A DNA stretch of 64,000 bases from a virus (lineage: Duplodnaviria; Heunggongvirae; Uroviricota; Caudoviricetes). Made by a program: the position numbers and the translations under genes. Under the pieces are notes generated by a model that worked only from the letters and a program-made list of their open reading frames with translations, ran no database searches and was not told where the DNA came from. Positions within the stretch are counted from its first letter, which is position 1; each line of letters starts with the position of its first letter. Positions 10,511 through 30,200 of this stretch are shown here, piece after piece. The stretch is from positions 20,026 through 84,025 of IMG/VR virus record IMGVR_UViG_2718218131_000011; one strand, 5' to 3'.

Positions 10511-11074
10511 ATGCTGAACAATAGAAATATGACTATTAATGAACTTAAAGACTGTATTCACTATGAAGTAATTGGTAGCGAGCGTCCTTTCTCTTGGCGA
10601 AAAGCAATTGTTCGCGCAATAAAACATAGAAGAGTTCGTTATTTATTTTGGTGGCGCATATCAAAATATCTTTTTGATAAAGGCGGATACAGGCGAAAGG
10701 TTGCAGGGAAAATAGAACGCTTCATTCTTGACAAATACAATGTAACCGTTCCCTTAACGGTAAATATAGGGAAAGGGTTTGACATATCTTATCTCAATGG
10801 CGTTGTTATCGCTCACAAAGTCACAATCGGTGAAAATTGTTCAATTAAGCCCGGAGTAACTATTGGACTTCGCGGGGAATTTAATGACATGGATATTGTT
10901 ATAGGAGATAATGTGACCATTGGTTGTAATGCCACCATTCTTGGTGGCAAAGTGCGTATAGGAAACAATGTCACAATAGGTGCTCATGCATTGGTATTGC
11001 ATGATATTCCTGATGATTCAACATTCATCACTAAATTTCAGTCTGAAGTTATCTGCTCGTCCTCCCGCACATAA
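10511..11074 (+). CDS. hexapeptide-repeat O-acetyltransferase (WcaF/WbbJ/LacA-like, left-handed beta-helix)
   Basis: 187 aa; repeated [LIV]-G-x-x-x-x-I hexapeptides ([16 protein letters not shown]...[34 protein letters not shown]); AT-rich gene; 3' end overlaps the tfa 3' end on the opposite strand. Confidence 0.75.
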
Positions 11075-11655
11075 CCCTGATTCATCAGCTCTGGCCATAC
11101 GATATCCGGAGCTGTACTGGTATCAATTCGACTCACTAATACTCTGTATTTTCTCCAGGAGTCCAGTTGTGAATTTTCCTCGTTTGTTGCTATTTCAAGA
11201 TTAACTGCGTCCTGCAGAATTGCGATGTTATCTGTTGCCTCCTGGATCAACCTTGCCTTTTTCTCTTCCGCTTCCCGTATCCGAAACAGTTTTTCTGCTT
11301 CCTCATCCTTCACCCAGGATACGCCGTCCCACTTCTGATACTCCCCTGCTGGCGACAACCAGGTGACATTCTCTGGTAGCGGTCCGGGTTCAGAAATAAA
11401 CAACGCGTCCCCCGATGCCACCTCATAGACCGTTTTACCACGATGGTCTTCAACAATATTCCACGATTCATTTTCACTGTTGAAAACTGCCACAAAGCCA
11501 GTAGGAATTTCCGGTGGGGCGATATCTGTAGAATTAGCTGGCAGCCCTGTATGAGGTGGAATATATGCGTCATCTTCACCAATAAACTCATTAGTTCCGG
11601 CCAGCAGGTTATAAATTTTTACTGTACGTGATTGTTCACTCATTCTGAATGCCAT
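11038..11655 (-). CDS. tail fibre assembly chaperone (Tfa; P1 U-like)
   Basis: 205 aa immediately downstream of the tail fibre gene; [23 protein letters not shown] resembles lambda/Mu Tfa family. Confidence 0.8.
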
Positions 11656-14600
11656 TATGCAAGCCTCACAATATAATTAAATGCGATGTTTTTAACGGTG
11701 TTTTCCGCGTTACCAGCAGCATTAACGGTGATGGTATGTCCATGTGAACCAATCGCAACAGAGTGCGTATGAGCGCCAATACCAACTGTATGTGCATGCG
11801 CCCCTGCACTTGCAGCAGTGCCTGATACTGAGTGGGTGTGTGCACCAGAAGAAGGCACTGTTCCATTCCCCACGACCGTGCCACTTGATGAACCATCAAG
11901 CCAGTCGAAATTCATACCTCCACTGTTTGGTCTCCTTAATGGAACGGTATGAGTATGTGCGCCAGCACTATTTGCAGTACCAGATACATTGTGGGTATGT
12001 GCACCTGTGTTATTCGTTGGTTTAGTACCGTAATCAAACGACGATGTGGTTTTCGTCCCCAAATCCGTACTGGATGCGCTGGCGCTGTGGGTGTGCGATT
12101 TAATGCCGTCCTGTTCCTGAGACAATACGGCACGACCACTGGCAGGTTTGCCCTTAATCGTCCAGCCACGCATATCAGGGATCACGCCTGACGGATAAGC
12201 GGCTGCAAGTTTCGGGTAAGCAGATTTGTCAAAAGTCTGCCCCTGCATTAGGGCATAACCAGACGGAACGGTATCTGATGGCCACGGGATTGGTGCGCCG
12301 ACTGGGTAGCTTTCTGGTGGAAGATTTTTCGAGGTATAAACTTCTGCCCAGTCTTCTTCAAAACCATAACCGTCTCTTGAAGAACGGTAGAACAGACCAC
12401 CATTTCTGTAATGCGCCTTCATCTGCAATGTCCGGCAACTTCCGACTCCGGTATAGAAGTTAACCAGAATATAGCTGTCGCCAGAGCGGGTGACATTGTA
12501 AGCGCCTGATTCGGCATTCCAGGGAACGCCACCATCCGCATCGGCATATGTATCCGTTGCCCTTCTGGCAAAAGCAGCCACATGCGCGGCGGTTAAAGTG
12601 ATATCAGTAGAACCATCAAATGGAACACCGGATATTTTTCTTGCAGTCTGAAGTTTTGTAGCAGTTGCAGCATTACCGTTCAAACTACCATTGATGCCGC
12701 CAGTAACATTGAGTCCATTACCGATCGTAACAGCACCATTGGCATTGTTAATGATAAGCGGCCTTAACCTATTATAGGTTCCTAGGCTGTTACCCGAATC
12801 GGTCAACATGAAATATGTGTTTGAACCATCGTTTCGGATAAAGAATCCGTAGTTTCCGTAGGCAATGCGCAGACCATTCGCCGATTTGGAAATAATCTCG
12901 CCAGCAGCAGTTAATCCGCCAGTTAACGCTCCTCCAGATAGTGGTAAAGCTCCGACATCAGCCGCAGTAGGCTTGTTTTTAGTGTTATACGCTCTGCGCC
13001 ATCCTGGTGAATAGCTCGTCCCGTTAAACACATAGACAAACTCCGCATTAGTGAGTGCGCCAGAGACACCTGTCGTTGTTGCCGTTGTTATACGAATCGT
13101 ATAATTGTTTGAGCTACTGCCGTTATTAAATACCTCAATAACTGCGCCAGCCAGTGGAATAATGCCGCATCCTGTTTCGCTGTCTGGTATGGATGCACTA
13201 TTTGCATACGCCCAGGCACAACGCGCTATCCATGCCTTTGCATTAAAAGCACCATTATCTCGTAGCAGAGTCACTAATTGCTCTGTTGTTATTGAAGCTC
13301 CATTATCACCTGTTACAAGCCAACCAGTAGGAGATGCCGGGCAACCAATATTTGCTGGTGACAGTGAAATATTCGCAGAACCGTCAAATGAAACCCCATT
13401 AATGGTACGCGCTGTTAGCAATTTGGTAGCCGTAGCTGCATTACCGGTTGTGTTCTGGTTACCAGCAATGTTTACACCCGGCAGATTGATATTGGCGGAG
13501 CCATCGAATGATACGCCGCCTATTGTGCGTGCTGTTTGCAGTTTTGTTGCAGTTGCAGCATTGCCAGTAGTGCTCTGATTACCTGTTTTATTCACACCTG
13601 GCAGGTCGATGTTTGCGGTACCATTAAATGAAACGCCACCAATGGTTCTTGCCGTTTGTAATTTCGTGGCAGACGCCGCATTTCCTGTTGTGTTCTGGTT
13701 GCCCGTTGTATTTACGCCCGGTATGGAGTCTTTCGATGTATAGACCTGTGCCCACTCAGACCATGCCGCATCTGTGTTATCTCTTCGGGAGCGAATGAAA
13801 ACTGGCGCATGTGCACCGCTCGTACCACTCCAGCCAATAAGCAACTCGCCCTCACCAGCAGCACTCGCACCTTTCATGTGCAATACGTTGCCATACGTGG
13901 TCGGGTAGCTATTGTTGTACGCCTCGTACATTTGAATGCCAGCAGTGCCTTGAGTAGAGCCGCTTAACGCCGTAACTCGGCCACGAGATACCAATGTATT
14001 AATGTTGATATCGCCTGAGCCATCAAACTTAACACCGTTGATGTTTCTTGCCGTCGCAAGTTTTGTCGCGGTAGCAGCATTCCCCGTGGTGTTCTGGTTA
14101 CCTGTTGTATTTACACCTGGAAGATTGATATTGGCCGAGCCATCAAATGCCACACCGCCAATCGTGCGTGCTGTTTTCAATTTCGTCGCGGTGTCGGCGT
14201 TCCCTGTCAGCGCCCCGGTGATCCCGCCGTTGAAAGTCTGGCGCGCACTCCATGTGTTAGCCGTGCTCAACAGGGGGATCTTTTCACCGCTGGTACCGAG
14301 TTCTCTTAAACCAAGGTATTGGATAACGGCCAGTGTGCTTGTTTTAGCCAGAATATCGCGACCGACTGACGTTAAATCAGTCTGCGCTACCGTATCCTTA
14401 CCAGTGAAATAAGGCAGTTTGTTTGCACCAGTCGCAAGGGCAGCGAGCGCGGTTAAAGTTGCATCCAGAGGCTGTTTGCCTGCCAGCGCATTTGTCATTG
14501 TTGTCGCAAAGTTCGGGTCATTGCCCAGTGCTGCTGCAAGCTCATTCAGAGTATCAAGAGCTTCAGGTGATGAGCCGACCAATGCAGAGATAGCAGCTCT

Positions 14601-15674
14601 TACATAAGCGGTCGTAGCAATCTGCGTGTTATTCGTACCCTGTGCAGCGGTAGGCGCAGTAGGTATTCCCGTTAATGCAGGACTTGCTAAAGGAGCTTTA
14701 AGAGCCAGAGCATTGTTGATAGTTGTGCTGAAATTCGGGTCGTTATTGATCGCAGCAGCTATTTCTTTAAGCGTATCCAGTGTGCCAGGTGCACCGTTGA
14801 TAAGTGCCGTTATAGCTGCCTTAACAAAGGCTGTATTTGCGATCTGCGTGCTGTTTGTACCTTGCGCTGCCGTCGGCGCGGTTGGCGTTCCTGTCAGACT
14901 CGGGCTTTCTATTGGCGCTTTGGTATCAGCCAGCTCTTTTACAGACTTAACGGCTTTAGGGGTAGCCGCCATTGTTTCGCTGTCGCTGTTAGTTGCGCTA
15001 CTGAGCTGAACTAATCCCTTTTGTGTTGTGCTTGCATCCTGCGCCGTATACTTGCTTTTAGCCAGATCGTAGGCTTTTTTAACTGCCAGCGAACTCGCAG
15101 CAACATCACTTCTGGTACTGGTTACAGAGTCTGAAATATCAATGCCGATCGTGCGGTTGATACGCTTGGATGTATCAATCATCTCCTGGGTAATGGCAGA
15201 TACACCAGCAGGGATATTCACCGTACAAACAAGCAGCTCCCCATCTCCTAACTGATATGAATCGGTATAGGTTCTGGAAACAAATTCAGCCGCATGAATA
15301 TGTGACGCGGTATTCACCTGATAGGTATCTTCTCCAAGGAGGTATCTTCCCTTCAGCACAATTGCATATTTCTTGCCTGCACTAAGTGCAAGAGAAATAT
15401 CCTTACGTTGCTGAATAGTTACCTGGTAGAATTCACCAATATCCACCGACGCCGCGCCTGCGGTTTTATCACCATCCACTGAGGTGATTAACAGGTTCAT
15501 CCCACCGCCAGGCTTAGGTAAGAAACCGGCATAAAATCCCGGGTCAACAATCCCCCTGAATTTTCGGTTTAGCGCGGCTGACAGATATGGTTCGTGGTAT
15601 TGCACATCAGCCACCAGAGCCAACGACTCGGGTGATGGGTAAGTAACCGATGTGACAACTGTAACGTCATTCAT
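11655..15674 (-). CDS. long tail fibre protein (P1 S-like), with P2 gpH-like conserved segments, internal repeats and His-rich tip
   Basis: ORF-track start at 15761 rejected; ATG at 15674 is preceded by AAGGA. Contains [57 protein letters not shown] as in P2 gpH; ~39-aa [31 protein letters not shown] repeats; C-terminal [12 protein letters not shown] repeats. Confidence 0.85.
13381..13725. repeat. three tandem ~117-bp intragenic repeats inside the tail fibre gene (further copies near 14018-14220 and 12640-12740)
   Basis: Direct DNA repeats ccatcgaatgatacgccgcc.../ccattaaatgaaacgccacc... encoding the repeated [23 protein letters not shown] units. Confidence 0.6.
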
Positions 15675-15685
15675 CAAGCATATCC

Positions 15686-16120
15686 TTATGCTGTAGTCGT
15701 GTTTATGGCCATAACTGCGGTATATGTTTTGCCCACATACAGCGAGTCTTCCTGGACACAAATAATGGCGATTGGCTTGTTCTCGTTATCCAGAACAACC
15801 AGAGTGTTGAATGGGTAGTTTTTCCCTTCCTGCAACTGGCTTTGATCAAGGTCCATTCGGACAGTTATTATCCCGCCTGAGTAGGTTGGGACGAGGTTGA
15901 TGGTGCAAAATTGACTGGTCAGTTCTGCCAGATCGAAAGCCTTTGGCAGTTCTCCAATCTCATAAGTGCCATCTCCTTTCTTAGTAACCAGTGAACTGGT
16001 ACCGAAAACGGCCTTGCTGATTAAAAATCGAGAGCCTTTGTTAATGGACGATTCAGCGCGCCGCTGATAGTAATAGTCCAACAACTGACTCTTATAGAGG
16101 TTTGTTGAGACGTCAGACAT
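15686..16120 (-). CDS. tail fibre-associated structural protein (P1 R-like position)
   Basis: 144-aa ORF immediately upstream of the tail fibre gene; assignment by synteny only. Confidence 0.5.
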
Positions 16121-16198
16121 GATTTTCCCTAATCAATGTTGTGAAGCCTCATTGTAAGAGAAGTAACTTGTCACCCCGCCCTGCGGACGGGGTGATTG

Positions 16199-17038
16199 TC
16201 AGGCGTCGCTATCCAGCAACAAATCATCTGCGCGTGTGCGATCAAACGTAGGTGTCGCTTTCACAATAGTGCCACCAGGCGTTGCGGTGATCGGGGCGCT
16301 AATCGACGTAACTCCAGTAAGCGAAGTTGTATCCGAAGTTTCAAACCAGCAGAATGCTTTTTCGGTATCAGAAATCTCGTTCAAAGTGATCATGTCGGCC
16401 TGTTCATTTACAACAACCGACAAATAGAGCGTAAGCCCATCAAACACTATATGCAGTGGCAGTAAAGGCTTTACGAACTGATTAAACTTTCTGAGAATTT
16501 CTTCTGTAATTGCGGACTGATCTATCGTGCCAGTAATCCCCATTGTCCGGGCCAGGTCGTTTATGGGAATACTGATCATCCCTCTGGAAGTCAGAAACAT
16601 CTCGCCGAATGTGCCGCCGGTTATCTCCAGTGTGCTTTCTGGTATTAGAACCGTGCCATAGGGATGACGCTCAAGGTCCACCGGTGCATATATCGGATCC
16701 CATAAAACAGAAATACCGTTAAATTCGCGGTAAATTGTCTGGTTTATAGGGCGTTCAGTCCCCTTAAAGTGAATCTCATCAAGACGCTGTTGTAACAACA
16801 TCGGAACGGAAGATGAGTTCGACGTTCTGATAGTAAAGAACTGGCCAAGTTCATTTGTCCTGGTCTCCAGATCCTCCTTGCTCATGGAAAAAATAGACTT
16901 CCGGTTGGTAATTCGCTCCAACCATGGGTCAACAAAGGTATCCATCATTGACTGAACCAAATCAGCCAATGATTTATAGAGCAATGCCTTTTGCTTAGCT
17001 GATGTAAGCCGGTTATTAAACCAGGAACGCTGCATCAC
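16199..17038 (-). CDS. baseplate/tail morphogenesis protein
   Basis: 279-aa ORF, start overlaps the upstream 477-aa gene stop; in the baseplate-tail fibre operon. Confidence 0.55.
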   Translation of the reverse strand: MMQRSWFNNRLTSAKQKALLYKSLADLVQSMMDTFVDPWLERITNRKSIFSMSKEDLETRTNELGQFFTIRTSNSSSVPMLLQQRLDEIHFKGTERPINQTIYREFNGISVLWDPIYAPVDLERHPYGTVLIPESTLEITGGTFGEMFLTSRGMISIPINDLARTMGITGTIDQSAITEEILRKFNQFVKPLLPLHIVFDGLTLYLSVVVNEQADMITLNEISDTEKAFCWFETSDTTSLTGVTSISAPITATPGGTIVKATPTFDRTRADDLLLDSDA

Positions 17039-18468: not shown

Positions 18469-18824
18469 AGCACCACGTCCTGTGTGATAGTTATATCCCT
18501 GATACGAATGGATATTTTCAACTTATCAAAAGCATCTCCCTCGGCTACTGACAAGCCAGAAATCGGTATGTCAGATAAATCTACCGTCAGTTTTTGCAAC
18601 AGCATTGCCTCAACCGCAATTTGAACATGCGACAAGTTGGTCGGTTCGTGTTTAAACTGCGGTAAAACATTGCCCCATGACGGATCTCCGTATACCTCAC
18701 CCTGATAAGTGTTTAGCCACTCATATAAACGAGCGCCCCAGGCCTCCTCCTGGGACTCATACGTTTTTACGCCGGATAACTCCAGCGTCAGCAAAGGATC
18801 AATTTCGTTATTGTTGGCCATCAA
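18465..18824 (-). CDS. small baseplate/tail protein (gp25/W-like size)
   Basis: 119-aa ORF, 4-nt overlaps with flanking genes. Confidence 0.5.
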   Translation of the reverse strand: MMANNNEIDPLLTLELSGVKTYESQEEAWGARLYEWLNTYQGEVYGDPSWGNVLPQFKHEPTNLSHVQIAVEAMLLQKLTVDLSDIPISGLSVAEGDAFDKLKISIRIRDITITQDVVL

Positions 18825-21800
18825 TCAACTCTCGCGTAGTCATTCATCAACGGATCATCAATTGACAGTGGTACCGTGCGCATAACGCCCGGCTGAGGCG
18901 TGCTGACCTTTACGACAGTTCCCTGGCCTTTCGCCGAGTCTTTGGTGTGCTCTTCAATCCTGGCAAGTAATGAGGTCATCTGCGCAAACAGCCGCTTCGT
19001 TTCACCATCAAGTGAAACGGTATTATCAGCCAACTGCATTGTCGGCTTGGCACCGGAACCACCAAGGTCACTAATAACCTGTCCGTCTATCTGCATACGA
19101 CCGGTTGGTTGCTGCAAATCGTTGGCGGCAGTCGTCACCTGGGACGTGGAGGCTGGTTCAGGCGCATTATTTTTCCGCATCCCCGGCGAGTTGCGGAGTT
19201 TATCGAATAGTCCATCAATCCCCATTTGTGCGCCGAGTTGGTCAAAGTAACTTGAGTTGCTGGTCACCGGACGCGCCTCTTCAACTGGCATCGGAGTATC
19301 AACATACACATTGCCAGCTGCTGTTGCGGTCCCCTTCCCTCGTGCACGTTCTTCGAGCGTTCCCTGAACGACTTCCCGACGCATACCCCGGCCATTCATG
19401 AATTTGTTGACCAGATCGTTAACGCCAACAGCATTGCCGATTTTGTCTACCAGACCGCCTTTCTCAAACGGGCTATCACCAGGGGTAAACGCCAGGCCAG
19501 TAGACTGATCGATAACAGCGTTATCAGGCAGTGGTCCCCTCACTCCATATTGCGCCCCACCCTGTGCTCCTGCTCCAGGTGTATAGATTTCACCACCTAA
19601 ATAGCGAGCACGATGAGTATTGACCTTGATCGCGTACTCACGGTTTTCTTTCGATAAGTCACCTGTGCCTTTTTTCCACTTATTGATAGTGCCAAACCCA
19701 GCGTTATATGCAGTGATGGCCTCGTTTAAGTCTCCATTGGCTTGCTTCAGATACTTGCTCATGAGAAGAGCCGCAGCTTCTGCCGATTTCACAGGATCAA
19801 ACGATTCACCTTCAGCTAAGCCAGTCTCTTCACGAGCAATCCCCGTGAACTGAAACATTCCCAGAGCACCGGTTTGGGATTTTGCATACGGATTACCACC
19901 AGATTCAGTTGCAGCAATCGCGTAAAGAGTGCCTTCTGGAAGACCATATTTATTCTCTAGTTCAGCAAAATACGGAGCCAACTTATCGAGATTTGCCTTA
20001 CCTTCAGATCCAAGACTTCCGACTTTTACATCCAAGCGGCCATTGTTGTAGGTATCCGCAGCTTTCTGAATGTCATTCCTGGTGCCAGTGGTATTAAGCG
20101 ACGATGATGACGAGCTATTTTGACCAATAGCTTTATCAATTTTCTGCAACGCGCTATTGCCCGTTTCTGCGGCATTTGCATTGATAATCTGATTCGCAGT
20201 TTCTTTAACTGTTTTATTGCTATCTTTCGCCGTGTCCAGTGCCGCATTTATCACGCGGGTAACAATATTAGTCTGTTTGGCATCGGATTCAGTTTTAGAA
20301 TCAGATGTCTCCTGGTGGCTATTAACCGGAGCTTTTAACTCTGGAGCGATTTCTTTCGCATTAGCCTCGCTATTAACCGGAGCTTTTAACTCTGGAGCGA
20401 TTTCTTTCGCATTAGCCTCGCCGATCGGATTGGGTATTTTTGATACAATCATTGCCGCAGGGGTATTTTTAACGGCATCAACCGCTGCATCTAATGCTTT
20501 ACCAGGTAAATTTTTAACCCCATCCCAAATATTACCAGCCGCCTCTTTAATGTGTTTCCCTGGGTTCTTAATGAAATCAATTGCACTATCAATTGCATCA
20601 CTGAAAACCTGTTTCAGGTTATCAACAGTAAAGAAGTCTTTGATGGCATCCAGCTTTTCAAGCAGCTTATTAGATGTATCGCTAAACCATGCTGAAACAG
20701 CATCACCAATCTTTGCTGTGTAATCTTCGAACTTGGTAGAAATGGTGTCGCCAAGGTTAGAAATATATGTTTCTAAGTTGGTAATCCCACTATCAATGGC
20801 CTGGGCAATACTTTCCGTCGAAAATGATTGCAACATATTGCCGATATCCTCAAATCCAAGTGATTTGAGAACCTCACCAATGGCGCTGCTAATACCAGAT
20901 ACCAGTCCCCCCATATCAAGAACATTGGCTAACGTATAAGCGGCTTTTTGCTGGAATGATGGATCTTGTCCTGATTTAAGCCCAAACGCTCGACGTTGCG
21001 CTTCTGTATCATTCCAACCGGTTACCGCATCATAAATACCTCCAGCCACTGTGCCGACTAAGGGAATTGCGCGTAACGCCCCTTTACCAACTGCCTTTAA
21101 TCCAAGTTTACCTGCTGCCCGGGCAGCCAAATCTCCACCTTCATGGGCGATAGTCTTCTTGCCACCACCGCGTAGCATTCCTACAAGTTTCTTTGCCCCC
21201 AGAGCGCCAAAAGCGAGTGCTCCAGCTTTTTTCAGCATGCCACGCCCCATTAACAACGACGCGACGCCACCGGCCCCCTTCCCTAACAGGCTAAATAGTT
21301 TGGACAGCAAGCCGCCCTTCTTTTTCCCGGTGTTTTTGGCTATCTGATCAAGGGCGCTGAGAATCTTGTCATTGCCCTCTTTAATTTCGCTGGTCTGCTC
21401 CTGAAGTTCCTGAACTGTCCGTTTTTGGGTGTTAACCTGAACGACATCGGCACTATTTTGCGATTTACGCCTAAAAAAACCTTTTCTACGGCTGTTATCG
21501 TCATTGCCACAAATCACATCGGCAATAGACTTTCTGGCACCATTAAGCGATCCACCAACTTCTTTTGATATCCCGCCAAGCTCCTTCCCTGCTGCCCACA
21601 ATGGACCAGCAACGGCATAACCTAACGCATCAACGGCACGAGTCTCTGAAGGGTTACCTATGCCTTCAGCTACTTTTGACAGTTTTTTTAATAAACCTGA
21701 TTCAGCATTTAGACGCTCATCATCCTCTTTGCGCCTGGCCTTTTCAGCACGTTCAGCACGGGCATCTTCCGCTGCGGCCTTACTCCCTGACTTTCCAATA

Positions 21801-22561
21801 AAACGACCACGCGCATCGCGTTGGTTTTGGCTTTTTTGCGCACCGCCTTTTTGATCGAACATTTCGCGAGCGTGTTCGGCTGCTTCGGTCCGTTGTGCCT
21901 TTATATCCTCTGGTATAGCCTTCCTGCGTCGTTTTTTACCCTTTGGTGTAGTTGATTTGGCCTGCTGTTCCTGTTGAGCAATGCCCTCCTGAACTACACG
22001 AGAAACGTCCCCTAAATTAAGCCGTTTCATTGCGTCAACAATAGGGTCTACTGATGGCGCATTGGCCACAAAGTCTGGCCGGGAATTTTCGATTGTTCGA
22101 TTTAATGCCGACACACTGCGAGATACTGGGTCAACCGTTGCAACGCGTTCCCCTTTCAAATCACGAGCGAGTTTGACCGTTTCTAACCGCTGTGCTTTAA
22201 CATCCTCTGTTATTGCCTCTCTTCGTCTATTTGGGGGATTGTGCGCTGTTGGTGCAGCCTGCTGTGCACGGTTAGTGACTTTGTCCTCCCGTATACGAGA
22301 AACGTCCCCTAAATTAAGCCGTTTTATTGCGTCAACAATAGGGTCCACTGATGGCGCATTGGTCACAAAGTCAGGACGTGAATTTTCGATTGTGCGATTT
22401 AATGCCGACACACTGCGAGAGACAGGATCAACAGTTGCAACTCGTTCCCCTTTCAAATCTTCAACAGCTTCCCGAATACCTGCAAGCTCTTCCAGCTCTT
22501 TCGCGCTGGCGGTTTCAACTGTCCTTATAACATCGTCAATATTGGCGTTTTTTCTTTCCAT
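18821..22561 (-). CDS. sit: Sit-like tape-measure/injection protein with lytic transglycosylase (SLT) domain
   Basis: 1246 aa; Gly/Ala/Lys-rich central region; SLT motifs YGLPEGTLYAIAATESGGNPYAKSQTGALGMFQFTG...AYNAG in the C-terminal half. Confidence 0.7.
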   Translation of the reverse strand: MERKNANIDDVIRTVETASAKELEELAGIREAVEDLKGERVATVDPVSRSVSALNRTIENSRPDFVTNAPSVDPIVDAIKRLNLGDVSRIREDKVTNRAQQAAPTAHNPPNRRREAITEDVKAQRLETVKLARDLKGERVATVDPVSRSVSALNRTIENSRPDFVANAPSVDPIVDAMKRLNLGDVSRVVQEGIAQQEQQAKSTTPKGKKRRRKAIPEDIKAQRTEAAEHAREMFDQKGGAQKSQNQRDARGRFIGKSGSKAAAEDARAERAEKARRKEDDERLNAESGLLKKLSKVAEGIGNPSETRAVDALGYAVAGPLWAAGKELGGISKEVGGSLNGARKSIADVICGNDDNSRRKGFFRRKSQNSADVVQVNTQKRTVQELQEQTSEIKEGNDKILSALDQIAKNTGKKKGGLLSKLFSLLGKGAGGVASLLMGRGMLKKAGALAFGALGAKKLVGMLRGGGKKTIAHEGGDLAARAAGKLGLKAVGKGALRAIPLVGTVAGGIYDAVTGWNDTEAQRRAFGLKSGQDPSFQQKAAYTLANVLDMGGLVSGISSAIGEVLKSLGFEDIGNMLQSFSTESIAQAIDSGITNLETYISNLGDTISTKFEDYTAKIGDAVSAWFSDTSNKLLEKLDAIKDFFTVDNLKQVFSDAIDSAIDFIKNPGKHIKEAAGNIWDGVKNLPGKALDAAVDAVKNTPAAMIVSKIPNPIGEANAKEIAPELKAPVNSEANAKEIAPELKAPVNSHQETSDSKTESDAKQTNIVTRVINAALDTAKDSNKTVKETANQIINANAAETGNSALQKIDKAIGQNSSSSSSLNTTGTRNDIQKAADTYNNGRLDVKVGSLGSEGKANLDKLAPYFAELENKYGLPEGTLYAIAATESGGNPYAKSQTGALGMFQFTGIAREETGLAEGESFDPVKSAEAAALLMSKYLKQANGDLNEAITAYNAGFGTINKWKKGTGDLSKENREYAIKVNTHRARYLGGEIYTPGAGAQGGAQYGVRGPLPDNAVIDQSTGLAFTPGDSPFEKGGLVDKIGNAVGVNDLVNKFMNGRGMRREVVQGTLEERARGKGTATAAGNVYVDTPMPVEEARPVTSNSSYFDQLGAQMGIDGLFDKLRNSPGMRKNNAPEPASTSQVTTAANDLQQPTGRMQIDGQVISDLGGSGAKPTMQLADNTVSLDGETKRLFAQMTSLLARIEEHTKDSAKGQGTVVKVSTPQPGVMRTVPLSIDDPLMNDYARVD
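20318..20419. repeat. exact 51-bp tandem duplication inside sit
   Basis: gctattaaccggagcttttaactctggagcgatttctttcgcattagcctc occurs twice head-to-tail, encoding EANAKEIAPELKAPVNS twice. Confidence 0.9.
21853..22471. repeat. ~300-bp tandem duplication at the 5' end of sit
   Basis: Protein segment KGERVATVDPVSRSVSALNRTIENSRPDFV.NAPSVDPIVDA.KRLNLGDVSR plus RRR.AI.ED.KAQR repeated ~100 aa apart; corresponding DNA copies near-identical (boundaries approximate). Confidence 0.6.
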
Positions 22562-26170: not shown

Positions 26171-26349
26171 GTATTTTTAAGTCGCGAATGCTATCTTTTC
26201 GCATCATATTGACCTTTTAATCGTTCAGGCTTATAGTTCCGCCGTCGTAGCAAATTCTGCGACCGGGTTTAGCAGCCTGAATACTTACGCGGACAACCGC
26301 AGATTTCCGATATTGCGGTATTTTTGTGTCCGTAAACCACGTTACGCCC

Positions 26350-26440
26350 GAATTATGGTGGGGCGTGATGGGGAGGCTTCGGCCTGCTGGTTTCGTAAGT
26401 GCCAGTCTGCTAACCCCGTCACGTCCTGCCACCTGTTTAG
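26350..26440 (+). ncRNA. c4: probable c4-like antisense immunity RNA region (boundaries approximate)
   Basis: Structured segment between the operator and icd-ant; CTGCTAA in 26403-26419 is complementary to TTAGCAG at 26434-26442 near the icd leader; placement by P1 synteny. Confidence 0.3.
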
Positions 26441-29870: not shown

Positions 29871-29939
29871 TACAATCGTTGCGGGTGCTTGAGGCTATCT
29901 GCTTCAGGCATTACCCGAAAAGCAGATAGAAGAAAGCCC

Positions 29940-30015
29940 CAGATAACATTACGCGTCCTGCAAGACGCTTAACATTAATCTGAGGCCATATCTATGCTTA
30001 GCATACGTAGATTAG
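29940..30015 (-). ncRNA. sok: probable Sok-like antisense RNA of the hok locus (boundaries approximate)
   Basis: Opposite-strand TTGACC / spacer / TAATCT promoter-like elements facing the mok/hok leader, with a GCGTC..GACGC hairpin; placed by analogy to hok/sok loci. Confidence 0.3.
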
Positions 30016-30200
30016 CCTCTTACCGACCAAAAGGTCAAGGAGAAGCAGGCTATGAAGCAGCAAAAAGCGATGTTAATCGCTCTGATCGTCATCTGTTTAA
30101 CCGTCATTGTGACGGCACTGGTAACGAGGAAAGACCTCTGCGAGGTACGAATCCGAACCAGCCAGACGGAGGTCACTGTCTTCACAGCCTACGAATCTGA
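29994..30200 (+). CDS. mok: Mok-like overlapping reading frame
   Basis: 68-aa ORF overlapping hok in another frame, as in hok/mok/sok loci. Confidence 0.4.
   Translation: MLSIRRLASYRPKGQGEAGYEAAKSDVNRSDRHLFNRHCDGTGNEERPLRGTNPNQPDGGHCLHSLRI

What the first reader, a model, noticed from the sequence alone, without database searches (positions are those of the whole stretch)
11655..15674. Mosaic tail fibre: P2 gpH-like conserved segments, repeated ~39-aa units and a His-rich tip
The fibre combines conserved gpH-type segments with at least five repeats of [31 protein letters not shown] (117-bp DNA repeats) and a C-terminal run of HxH motifs ([33 protein letters not shown]) reminiscent of metal-binding receptor tips such as T4 gp37. 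The repeats are substrates for slippage that would change fibre length. The ORF-track start at 15761 is an artefactual extension; the real start is ATG 15674.
Basis: seen in the sequence. Interest (0 to 1): 0.35.

Follow-up and report, generated by a model that had tools for sequence, protein, structure and literature searches.

The report
P1-type tail fibre, T4-like tip
This is the ordinary, already-sequenced tail-fibre gene of a P1-like phage-plasmid of E. coli: a patchwork protein whose shaft is built from repeated 40-residue units and whose receptor-binding end is a close relative of the iron-binding tip of phage T4.

Summary
Window 11655-15674 (- strand) is one 1339-aa ORF, gene S (tail fibre) of a P1-like IncY phage-plasmid. 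The exact protein lies on 284 public contigs, and RefSeq annotates the same ATG at 15674.

It is a mosaic:
- aa 1-501 are 96.5% identical in DNA to P1 S.
- aa 180-458 are 57-66% identical to P2 gpH.
- The middle resembles other punavirus, Mu S/S' and T4 gp34 modules.
- From aa ~992 to the end, plus the downstream tfa chaperone and an acetyltransferase, it matches lambdoid side-tail-fibre modules.
- The last 219 aa are 70% identical to the crystallised T4 gp37 tip (E 1e-85). All 14 histidines of the seven HxH iron sites are conserved. Only the distal loop (aa 1243-1278) is hypervariable.

- There are six repeat units, of 40 aa (120 bp), not 39 aa (117 bp).
- Their DNA similarity (53-72%) is no more than amino-acid conservation requires.

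Close relatives nonetheless differ by whole units. Two deletion alleles have crossovers in 13-14-nt shared runs.

P1's invertible C-segment and cin are missing and one orphan cix site remains, so the fibre is locked.

Verdict: correct reading, known kind, low novelty.

The parts
16151..16169 (-). P1 late promoter LPs (-22 box 16161-16169, -10 box 16151-16156), which drives the R-S-tfa genes
   Evidence: The region is 99% identical to the annotated P1 LPs region, and both boxes are unchanged. Function is inferred from the P1 annotation.
15686..16120 (-). Gene R (144 aa), the P1 tail-fibre structure/assembly protein
   Evidence: ORF. PHROG 2032, E 7e-85. Same position as P1 R.
11655..15674 (-). 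Gene S, tail fibre, 1339 aa (stop codon at 11655-11657)
   Evidence: The exact protein, P0001, lies on 284 contigs.
14170..15674 (-). P1-identical proximal part (aa 1-501). aa 1-~180 form the P1-specific, presumed baseplate-proximal end.
   Evidence: 96.5% DNA identity to P1, ending abruptly at 14170. Protein alignment.
14301..15137 (-). P2 gpH-like conserved segment (aa 180-458). It includes the two 74-aa 'b' repeats: b1 is aa 253-326 (14697-14918) and b2 is aa 327-400 (14475-14696).
   Evidence: 57-66% identity to P2 H 168-383, E 6e-62. Pfam Phage_fiber_2. P1 annotation of b1/b2. b1 and b2 are 69% identical in protein.
14304..14323 (.). Orphan cixR recombination site, encoding QYLGLR (aa 451-457)
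   Evidence: 20/20 identical to P1 cixR. There is no second cix-like site (up to 4 mismatches allowed) and no Cin homologue anywhere in the 64-kb window.
13989..14228 (-). Repeat array 1: units R1 (aa 483-522, 14109-14228) and R2 (aa 523-562, 13989-14108)
   Evidence: P1 has one unit here, so this allele carries an exact 40-aa insertion.
13710..13988 (-). Globular module between arrays 1 and 2 (aa 563-655). It is homologous to P1 Sv aa 523-615 and, more distantly, to aa 1034-1120 of this protein.
   Evidence: The globular fold is inferred; it was not modelled reliably.
13350..13709 (-). Repeat array 2: R3 (aa 656-695, 13590-13709), R4 (aa 696-735, 13470-13589) and R5 (aa 736-775, 13350-13469)
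   Evidence: P1 has one unit here. Relatives have 1, 2 or 3 units.
12984..13349 (-). Module homologous to the Mu S/S' fibre (aa 776-897)
   Evidence: PDB 8JU3 residues 188-328; the stretch has E 6.7e-26.
12702..12983 (-). Gp34_trimer-type module (aa 898-991)
   Evidence: Pfam PF21446, E 1.3e-31. Matches Mu S (5YVQ 243-338) and T4 gp34 (4UXE, 5NXF).
12582..12701 (-). Repeat unit R6 (aa 992-1031), the junction between the punavirus-type shaft and the lambdoid Stf-type distal part
   Evidence: Punavirus MH422554 homology stops at 12715. Lambdoid homology (Turner, Ro157c2YLVW, K-12 stfR, chromosomal prophages up to 100% identical) stops at 12677-12686.
12315..12581 (-). Module (aa 1032-1120) homologous to Mu S/S' residues 324-415
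   Evidence: PDB 8JU3, stretch 3, E 2.3e-20.
11658..12314 (-). Receptor-binding tip (aa 1121-1339): a gp37-type collar (D10) and needle (D11) with seven HxH sites, their first histidines at aa 1194, 1226, 1240, 1279, 1293, 1302 and 1311
   Evidence: 2XGF E 1.2e-85. 70% identity to T4 gp37 811-1026, with all 14 His conserved in T4 and 93-100% conserved in an alignment of the query, T4 and 73 homologues. Pfam Collar. Iron binding is inferred from T4 (PMC6957217).
11841..11948 (-). Hypervariable distal loop of the tip (aa 1243-1278), the presumed receptor-contact surface
   Evidence: Column entropy is above 2 bits here and below 0.5 in most of the rest of the tip. It aligns to T4 gp37 932-965, where alanine scanning maps the receptor-critical residues (PMC6957217).
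11038..11655 (-). Tail-fibre assembly chaperone (Tfa/gp38/U family, 205 aa); its start codon overlaps the stop of S
   Evidence: Pfam Caudo_TAP, E 2.8e-39. PHROG 105, E 1e-92. Mu U, 5YVQ_B, E 3e-10.
10511..11074 (+). Hexapeptide-repeat acetyltransferase (187 aa), convergent with tfa and overlapping it by 37 bp. It is co-inherited with the tip and tfa.
   Evidence: Pfam Hexapep. NCBIfam matches to EpsC, CysE and WcaB are all below their cut-offs. The tip, tfa and this gene are together 94.6% identical in phage vB_EcoM-613R2. Its role is unknown.

Best explanation
The gene encodes the tail fibre (gpS) of a P1-like phage-plasmid. It has been assembled by recombination from modules that circulate among P1, P2, Mu, lambdoid and T4-type phages.

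How it most likely works:
- The P1-identical N-terminus anchors a homotrimer to the baseplate.
- The shaft is a string of small globular modules separated by arrays of a conserved 40-residue unit (2+3+1 copies).
- The C-terminus is a gp37-type collar and needle. In it, seven HxH motifs from each of three chains coordinate seven metal (iron) ions along the trimer axis.
- A hypervariable distal loop (aa 1243-1278) contacts the host receptor, which is not known. The loop is unrelated in sequence to T4's OmpC/LPS-binding loop.
- The Tfa chaperone encoded immediately downstream folds the tip.

The distal part, tfa and an acetyltransferase came as a block from a lambdoid side-tail-fibre locus. That block replaced P1's invertible C-segment, cin and lydC. 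Only one orphan cix site is left, so the fibre can no longer switch between two specificities.

The conserved 40-aa units act as in-frame joints. Module boundaries and unit gains and losses in relatives map inside them. In this allele the units are saturated at synonymous sites, so change is rare and microhomology-mediated rather than frequent slippage.

Shown here: the homologies, the breakpoints, histidine conservation, the allelic unit variation and the absence of cin. Inferred: trimer formation, metal binding, chaperone dependence and the receptor role of the loop.
For: Identity and context. There is 96.5% DNA identity to P1 across pmgA-16-R-Sc up to 14170, and the P1 late promoter LPs is conserved. 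Plasmids 99.6-100% identical over the region are typed IncY and carry the same annotation.

Mosaic:
- P2 H segment, E 6e-62.
- Mu S/S' and T4 gp34 modules.
- Lambdoid stf/tfa, 85-100% identical distal to R6.

Tip. 2XGF E 1.2e-85. The match begins at gp37 residue 811, which is the start of D10. All 14 His are conserved. Variability is confined to aa 1243-1278, equivalent to T4 932-965. A Caudo_TAP gene lies directly downstream.

Locked fibre. cixR is intact at 14304-14323, with no second cix and no Cin in the window. The P1 segment lydC-cin-Sv'-U'-U is absent. The related phage JL22 still carries U, S' and cin downstream of the same kind of insertion.

Repeats as joints:
- Compared with P1, this fibre has exactly +40 aa in array 1 and +80 aa in array 2.
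- Relatives 94-100% identical have 2+2+1, 2+1+1, 3+2+1, 3+3+1, 4+3+1 or 2+3+2 units.
- The 1259-aa allele is a clean R3xR5 crossover in the 14-nt run AACCAGAACACAAC (72/72 informative sites).
- The 1126-aa allele is a clean R1xR4 crossover in the 13-nt run AAACAGCACGCAC (74/74 sites).
- The P1 homology breakpoint (14170) lies in that same 13-nt run, and the lambdoid junction lies in R6.

Synonymous saturation. 71-74% of identical residues in adjacent units use different codons. Nucleotide identity is 61.2% against 59.2% expected from protein conservation alone.
Against: - No experiment or reliable model here shows trimerisation, metal binding or receptor contact. The AlphaFold monomer model of the repeat region was useless (pLDDT 42).
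- No solved structure contains the 40-aa unit. The best PDB match is the phage L Dec C-terminus at E 0.07, so the shape of the unit and the length it adds are unknown.
- The deletion and expansion alleles come mostly from draft assemblies and were not checked against reads.
- Whether the shortened or lengthened fibres are functional is unknown.
- Only 64 kb of the roughly 100-kb element was searched for cin.
Confidence: 0.88

Rival explanations
1. The repeat arrays are a contingency locus. Near-identical tandem DNA repeats slip frequently during replication, giving high-frequency, reversible variation in fibre length within a phage population.
For: Unit number differs among close relatives. 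One allele (P0003, 1549 aa) has two adjacent units 100% identical in DNA. In such alleles slippage or unequal crossing-over would be efficient.
Against: - In this allele, unit DNA identity is 53-72%, the longest shared run is 14 nt, and TRF finds no array.
- The similarity equals what protein conservation alone predicts.
- 80 of the 120 best database relatives are 1339 aa with the same 2+3+1 unit positions, and the exact protein lies on 284 contigs. The allele is therefore stable.
Confidence: 0.08
2. The unit-number variants seen in relatives are assembly artefacts (repeat collapse or expansion), so there is no real length polymorphism.
For: Most variant alleles come from draft short-read assemblies. 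Identical adjacent units, as in P0003, can be miscounted by assemblers.
Against: - The two deletion junctions lie in shared runs of only 13-14 nt, shorter than the k-mers assemblers usually use (general knowledge, not tested here). All 72 and 74 flanking informative sites fit a single crossover.
- The 1126-aa allele occurs on two contigs, and a 99%-identical second representative exists.
- Finished phage genomes also differ: P1 has 1+1 units, and this element and complete plasmids have 2+3+1.
Confidence: 0.06
3. The gene is a decaying remnant. After the loss of cin and the C-segment, the fibre of a defective plasmid-prophage is no longer used.
For: The inversion system is gone, and a group II intron fragment lies in the scar next to the locus. 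Related plasmids carry IS insertions in or near the region (H32, H38, H43).
Against: - The 4-kb ORF is intact and identical on hundreds of contigs.
- The units show strong protein conservation with saturated synonymous change, which indicates purifying selection.
- The promoter, R, the Tfa chaperone and all 14 metal-site histidines are intact.
- Isolated phages (Ro157c2YLVW, JL22) have the same design.
Confidence: 0.05

Closest known systems
Phage P1 (and P7) tail fibre gpS, with R and U
   Same: - Same gene position and late promoter.
- aa 1-501 are about 97% identical.
- The same a/b repeats and the same cixR sequence are present.
- P1 S also contains the 40-aa unit, one copy in each of two places.
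   Different: - P1 S is 987 aa. Its C-terminal half is invertible (Sv/Sv') under Cin and resembles Mu S.
- Here the fibre is 1339 aa with 2+3+1 units, a gp37/Stf-type tip and a lambda-type Tfa instead of U.
- There is no cin, cixL, Sv' or U'.
T4 gp37 receptor-binding tip (PDB 2XGF; domains D10-D11) with chaperone gp38
   Same: - 70% identity over gp37 811-1026.
- Collar domain present, and all seven HxH iron sites conserved.
- Identical C-terminal ...[11 protein letters not shown].
- A Tfa/gp38-family chaperone gene lies next door.
   Different: - The distal loop (36 aa here, 34 in T4) is unrelated in sequence, so the receptor is probably not T4's OmpC/LPS site.
- The rest of the fibre is not gp37-like.
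- No gp57A requirement can be assessed.
Lambdoid side tail fibre Stf plus Tfa (lambda Stf, K-12 Rac StfR, phages Turner, mEp332, ev099, vB_EcoM-613R2)
   Same: DNA from R6 to the end of tfa is 85-100% identical to such loci. The tip, tfa and the acetyltransferase are 94.6% identical in 613R2, and the tip protein is 97.8% identical.
   Different: In those phages the module sits on a siphovirus side fibre with a different N-terminus. Here it is grafted onto a myovirus P1 fibre.
Punavirus fibres already in GenBank with the same graft (vB_EcoM-Ro157c2YLVW, JL22)
   Same: P1 Sc, a gp37-type tip, tfa and a serine acetyltransferase. Ro157c2YLVW is annotated 'long-tail fiber protein p37'. The JL22 paper notes that S/U are replaced by tfa and sacF.
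   Different: They are shorter (949 and 1006 aa), with a different middle part and tip loop. JL22 keeps U, S' and cin downstream.
P2 gpH
   Same: aa 180-458 are 57-66% identical to H 168-383, running up to the ...YLGL(R/Q)E motif that is the cix site in P1.
   Different: The N-terminus and everything distal to aa 458 are unrelated. P2 H (669 aa) has no 40-aa arrays and no HxH tip.

Membership tests
P1-type tail fibre gpS (Punavirus) | N-terminal constant part (Sc) homologous to P1 S, encoded between R and a fibre chaperone gene, downstream of late promoter LPs | tested here: met
   96.5% DNA identity over 14170-17000, protein identical in register from Met1, and LPs boxes conserved.
P1-type tail fibre gpS (Punavirus) | C-terminal part carried on a Cin-invertible C-segment (cixL/cixR, Sv/Sv', U/U') | tested here: not met
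   Only cixR is present (14304-14323). There is no second cix, no Cin homologue in the 64-kb window, and the P1 segment lydC-cin-Sv'-U'-U is absent. The rest of the element, outside the window, was not seen.
T4 gp37-type receptor-binding tip (collar + needle) | Sequence homology to gp37 D10-D11 (residues 811-1026) | tested here: met
   2XGF E 1.2e-85, 70% identity over 209 aligned positions, Pfam Collar.
T4 gp37-type receptor-binding tip (collar + needle) | Seven HxH motifs that coordinate iron on the trimer axis | tested here: met
   All 14 His align with those of T4 and are 93-100% conserved in an alignment of the query, T4 and 73 homologues. Only the motifs were tested.
T4 gp37-type receptor-binding tip (collar + needle) | Actual metal occupancy and trimeric needle fold | not testable with these tools
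   This needs protein chemistry or a trimer structure. The monomer AF2 job was run on the repeat region, not the tip, and gave pLDDT 42.
T4 gp37-type receptor-binding tip (collar + needle) | Dedicated Tfa/gp38-family chaperone encoded directly downstream | tested here: met
   Caudo_TAP E 2.8e-39, PHROG 105 E 1e-92, Mu U E 3e-10. The chaperone gene's start overlaps the stop of S at 11655.
Lambdoid Stf-Tfa module | Nucleotide-level identity of the fibre 3' end plus tfa to lambdoid prophage loci | tested here: met
   85% to Turner over 11091-12680, 94.6% to 613R2 over 11000-12288, and up to 100% to chromosomal prophages over 12500-12677.
P2 gpH-like fibres (Phage_fiber_2 repeat region) | Conserved central segment with Phage_fiber_2 repeats | tested here: met
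   Pfam PF03406 E 7e-29, two stretches. BLASTP against P2 H gives E 6e-62.
Slippage-prone tandem DNA repeat (contingency) locus | Head-to-tail DNA copies similar enough to misalign (near-identical units) | tested here: not met
   TRF finds none. Identity is 53-72% and the longest common run is 14 nt. The similarity equals the codon-resampled expectation.
Slippage-prone tandem DNA repeat (contingency) locus | Unit-number polymorphism among close relatives | tested here: met
   Arrays of 1-4 units occur in relatives that are 94-100% identical elsewhere. Two deletion junctions were mapped to the nucleotide.

The most novel reading that the evidence does not exclude
The conserved 40-aa unit could be a selected, universal in-frame 'splice joint' for fibres. 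In this reading its few short invariant nucleotide runs are kept as recombination hotspots. Phages would then swap distal modules and tune fibre length without breaking the trimer register, and fibre length itself would be an adaptive trait, matched for example to the O-antigen or capsule depth of the host.

Hints in favour:
- Three independent breakpoints fall inside units. Two of them (the end of P1 homology and the R1xR4 deletion) share the same 13-nt run.
- Pairs of units sharing a run of at least 13 nt are slightly more numerous than the codon-resampled null predicts (4 against 1.2, p about 0.03).

The overall nucleotide identity and the longest run are no greater than chance predicts.
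Probability: 0.12. Interest if true: 0.5.

Novelty: already known. Interest (0 to 1): 0.22.

Why it matters
For host-range prediction: this common family of E. coli phage-plasmids includes mcr-1 and ESBL carriers such as pMCR-1-P3 (KX518745; its mcr-1 carriage is from my own knowledge, not checked here). These elements do not use the classical switchable P1 S/S' fibres. They carry a fixed fibre whose specificity is set by a 36-residue loop on a T4/lambda-type iron-needle scaffold.

For engineering: the six repeat units mark natural in-frame positions where modules have been exchanged or units removed. These are useful places to cut when designing chimeric P1 fibres.

None of this changes current understanding. 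Mosaic fibres shared among P1, P2, Mu, lambda and T4 have been textbook knowledge since the early 1990s.

Tried and rejected
- Tandem Repeats Finder on 11000-16500 found no array. The only hit was a trivial 10-bp repeat.
- A PDB sequence search with the three-unit array gave no solved homologue. The only hits were a weak match to the phage L Dec C-terminus (NAETADKLSTARTI...FDGSANV, E 0.07) and a chance chitinase hit. The fold of the unit stays unknown.
- AlphaFold2 monomer prediction of aa 483-775 gave pLDDT 42 and pTM 0.27, so it was not used and no fold search was run.
- I considered that the T4 gp34/gp12 alpha-beta fibrous repeats (PMC5537660) are the same unit. No sequence match supports this, so I did not claim it.
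- Literature searches for repeat copy number or fibre length in P1-like fibres found nothing relevant.
- The original T4 tip structure paper (PMC2996694) is not held. Domain limits were taken from PMC6957217 instead.
- NCBIfam has no model that names S or Tfa. The acetyltransferase matches EpsC, CysE and WcaB only below their cut-offs, so no substrate was assigned.
- I looked for a complete group II intron next to the locus and found only 5' fragments.
- I tested whether microhomologies are enriched beyond what protein conservation gives. The longest run and the overall identity are not enriched. The count of runs of at least 13 nt is marginal.

Full report
**1. What is at the coordinates**

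Window 11655-15674 (- strand) is one open reading frame of 1339 aa. The mechanical ORF start, TTG 15761, lies inside the upstream gene R (15686-16120). The real start is ATG 15674:
- It lies 11 nt after R's stop and has an AAGGA ribosome-binding site upstream.
- It aligns from Met1 with the annotated P1 S protein.
- RefSeq uses the same start on an identical plasmid.

**2. Where the window comes from**

- The region is 99.6-100% identical to at least 23 complete E. coli plasmids. One example is NZ_CP148508, typed IncY and non-mobilizable. Another is KX518745.
- Gene order is that of phage P1: sit-pmgA-bplA-16-R-S on one side and lydA-lydB-darA on the other.
- The exact 1339-aa protein is in the public protein collection on 284 contigs.
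- 83 of 5426 complete E. coli genomes carry at least 80% of the shaft region, window 12500-14300.

So this is a common, already annotated gene.

**3. The repeats**

There are six units of 40 aa (120 bp):

| Unit | Residues | Window coordinates |
|---|---|---|
| R1 | aa 483-522 | 14109-14228 |
| R2 | aa 523-562 | 13989-14108 |
| R3 | aa 656-695 | 13590-13709 |
| R4 | aa 696-735 | 13470-13589 |
| R5 | aa 736-775 | 13350-13469 |
| R6 | aa 992-1031 | 12582-12701 |

- They form arrays of 2+3+1 separated by non-repeat modules.
- Protein identity between units is 50-85%.
- The core motif occurs six times. In 20,000 shuffles of the protein the maximum was one.

At DNA level the units are only 53-72% identical. 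The longest shared run is 14 nt, and Tandem Repeats Finder sees nothing. In adjacent units, 71-74% of the identical residues use different codons. Resampling synonymous codons while keeping the protein gives 59.2% nucleotide identity and a longest run of 14.2 nt. The observed values are 61.2% and 14 nt. These are therefore old protein repeats under purifying selection, not DNA repeats.

**4. The mosaic**

- aa 1-501: 96.5% DNA identity to P1, stopping abruptly at window 14170, inside R1.
- aa 180-458: 57-66% identical to P2 gpH 168-383 (E 6e-62). This stretch contains the Pfam Phage_fiber_2 repeats and P1's annotated 74-aa b1/b2 elements.
- aa 502-~990: closest to another punavirus (MH422554, 88-94% DNA identity). 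Its modules match solved pieces of Mu S/S' (8JU3, 5YVQ) and the T4 gp34 trimerisation module (PF21446).
- From R6 to the end of the downstream chaperone gene the DNA is lambdoid: 85% to phage Turner, 94% to Ro157c2YLVW, 86% to K-12 stfR and up to 100% to chromosomal prophages. All of these matches stop at 12677-12686, the start of the R6 core.
- The last ~630 bp of S, tfa and a convergent acetyltransferase are together 94.6% identical to phage vB_EcoM-613R2.

**5. The tip**

- aa 1121-1339 match the crystallised T4 gp37 tip (2XGF) at E 1.2e-85.
- The match begins at gp37 residue 811, which is the start of the D10 collar as defined in PMC6957217.
- Identity is 70% over 209 aligned positions.
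- All 14 histidines of the seven HxH motifs align with T4's. They are 93-100% conserved in an alignment of the query, T4 and 73 homologous tips.
- In T4 these motifs coordinate seven iron ions along the needle (PMC6957217).
- Variability is confined to aa 1243-1278 (entropy above 2 bits, against below 0.5 in most of the rest of the tip). This stretch aligns with T4 932-965, where alanine scanning maps the residues needed for infection.
- That loop is unrelated in sequence to T4's. Among isolated phages only 613R2 shares it (97.8%). The receptor is therefore unknown and probably not T4's.

The gene directly downstream (11038-11655) is a Tfa/gp38/U-family chaperone.

**6. The fibre is locked**

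In P1 the 3' half of S lies on the Cin-invertible C-segment. Here:
- cixR is intact (14304-14323, 20/20, encoding QYLGLR).
- No second cix-like site and no Cin homologue exist in the 64-kb window.
- lydC-cin-Sv'-U'-U are missing. P1 homology resumes at 9572.

Phage JL22 shows an intermediate state: the same kind of stf-tip, tfa and acetyltransferase insertion, with U, S' and cin still downstream. Its authors noted the replacement (PMC9603915). Ro157c2YLVW's fibre is annotated 'long-tail fiber protein p37'.

**7. Do the repeats change fibre length?**

Evolutionarily, yes. P1 has 1+1 units, and this allele differs from it by exact insertions of 40 and 80 aa. Relatives that are 94-100% identical elsewhere differ by whole units:

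| Allele length | Unit arrangement |
|---|---|
| 1300 aa | 2+2+1 |
| 1259 aa | 2+1+1 |
| 1126 aa | R1/R4 fusion, then R5, then R6 |
| 1436 aa | 2+3+2 |
| 1490 aa | 3+2+1 |
| 1509 aa | 3+3+1 |
| 1549 aa | 4+3+1 |

I fetched the DNA of two deletion alleles:
- The 1259-aa allele is a single R3xR5 crossover within AACCAGAACACAAC (window 13687-13700 / 13447-13460). All 72 of 72 informative sites agree.
- The 1126-aa allele is a single R1xR4 crossover within AAACAGCACGCAC (14164-14176 / 13525-13537). All 74 of 74 sites agree.

The P1 homology breakpoint (14170) lies in that same 13-nt run. One expansion allele has two adjacent units 100% identical in DNA.

So the units are in-frame joints where modules are exchanged and units are lost or gained. 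In this allele the events are rare and microhomology-mediated, not slippage of near-identical copies. In line with this, 80 of the 120 best database relatives are 1339 aa with the same 2+3+1 unit positions.

**8. What could not be shown**

- Trimerisation, metal binding, chaperone dependence and receptor contact are inferred from T4, lambda and Mu.
- No solved structure contains the 40-aa unit.
- A monomer AlphaFold model was uninformative.
- The variant alleles come mainly from draft assemblies.

**9. Verdict**

The object is a member of a long-known class: mosaic tail fibres that share modules among P1, P2, Mu, lambda and T4. The exact sequence and close architectural relatives are already in public records. 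Interest is low. The modest added value is the nucleotide-level mapping of repeat-unit crossovers, the demonstration that the 'DNA repeats' are only protein repeats, and the note that this plasmid lineage carries a fixed, gp37-tipped fibre instead of P1's invertible one.

Noticed in passing
window 14304-14323: An intact but orphan P1 cixR inversion site sits inside the fibre gene. No partner site and no cin invertase are present in the 64-kb window, so the classical P1 host-range switch is gone.
   Followed up: yes
window 9689-9958 (+), within the 9573-10510 gap between lydA and the acetyltransferase: Rfam finds only 5' fragments of a group II intron (RF02001 and RF01998, D1-D4). There is no D5/D6 and no intron-encoded protein. 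The 938-bp stretch is unannotated in matching E. coli plasmids and is also found in one chromosome. It looks like a remnant in the scar left by the loss of lydC-cin-C-segment.
   Followed up: partly
window 10511-11074 (+): A hexapeptide-repeat acetyltransferase converges on tfa and overlaps it by 37 bp. RefSeq annotates it as 'serine acetyltransferase', but its NCBIfam matches to EpsC, CysE and WcaB are all below their cut-offs. It travels with the tip and tfa in lambdoid phages and other punaviruses. It may be a lysogenic-conversion gene linked to the fibre's receptor; this was not tested.
   Followed up: partly
window 18821-22561 (-), especially 20318-20421: The sit gene (putative tail ruler / transglycosylase) is 1246 aa here against 1140 aa in P1. 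It contains a perfect 51-bp tandem duplication (EANAKEIAPELKAPVNS x2). The translation also shows an ~89-aa block duplicated near the N-terminus. Length changes in a ruler protein could alter tail length.
   Followed up: partly
window 14164-14176: The point where 96.5% identity to P1 ends (14170) falls in the same 13-nt run (AAACAGCACGCAC) that served as the crossover in an independent R1xR4 deletion allele. This may be a recurrent breakpoint.
   Followed up: yes
window 26231-26283, 26351-26436 and 29883-30057 (+): Rfam finds the P1 immunity C4 antisense RNA with its a1/b1 targets, and a sok antitoxin RNA (hok/sok-type plasmid addiction). These are expected features of a P1-like plasmid prophage.
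   Followed up: no
L011 (GCA_052514785.1 contig), gene at 1501-6150: A 1549-aa allele of the same fibre carries an extra ~129-aa module inserted after aa 483 and a four-unit array. Two units of that array are 100% identical in DNA, which indicates a recent duplication.
   Followed up: partly
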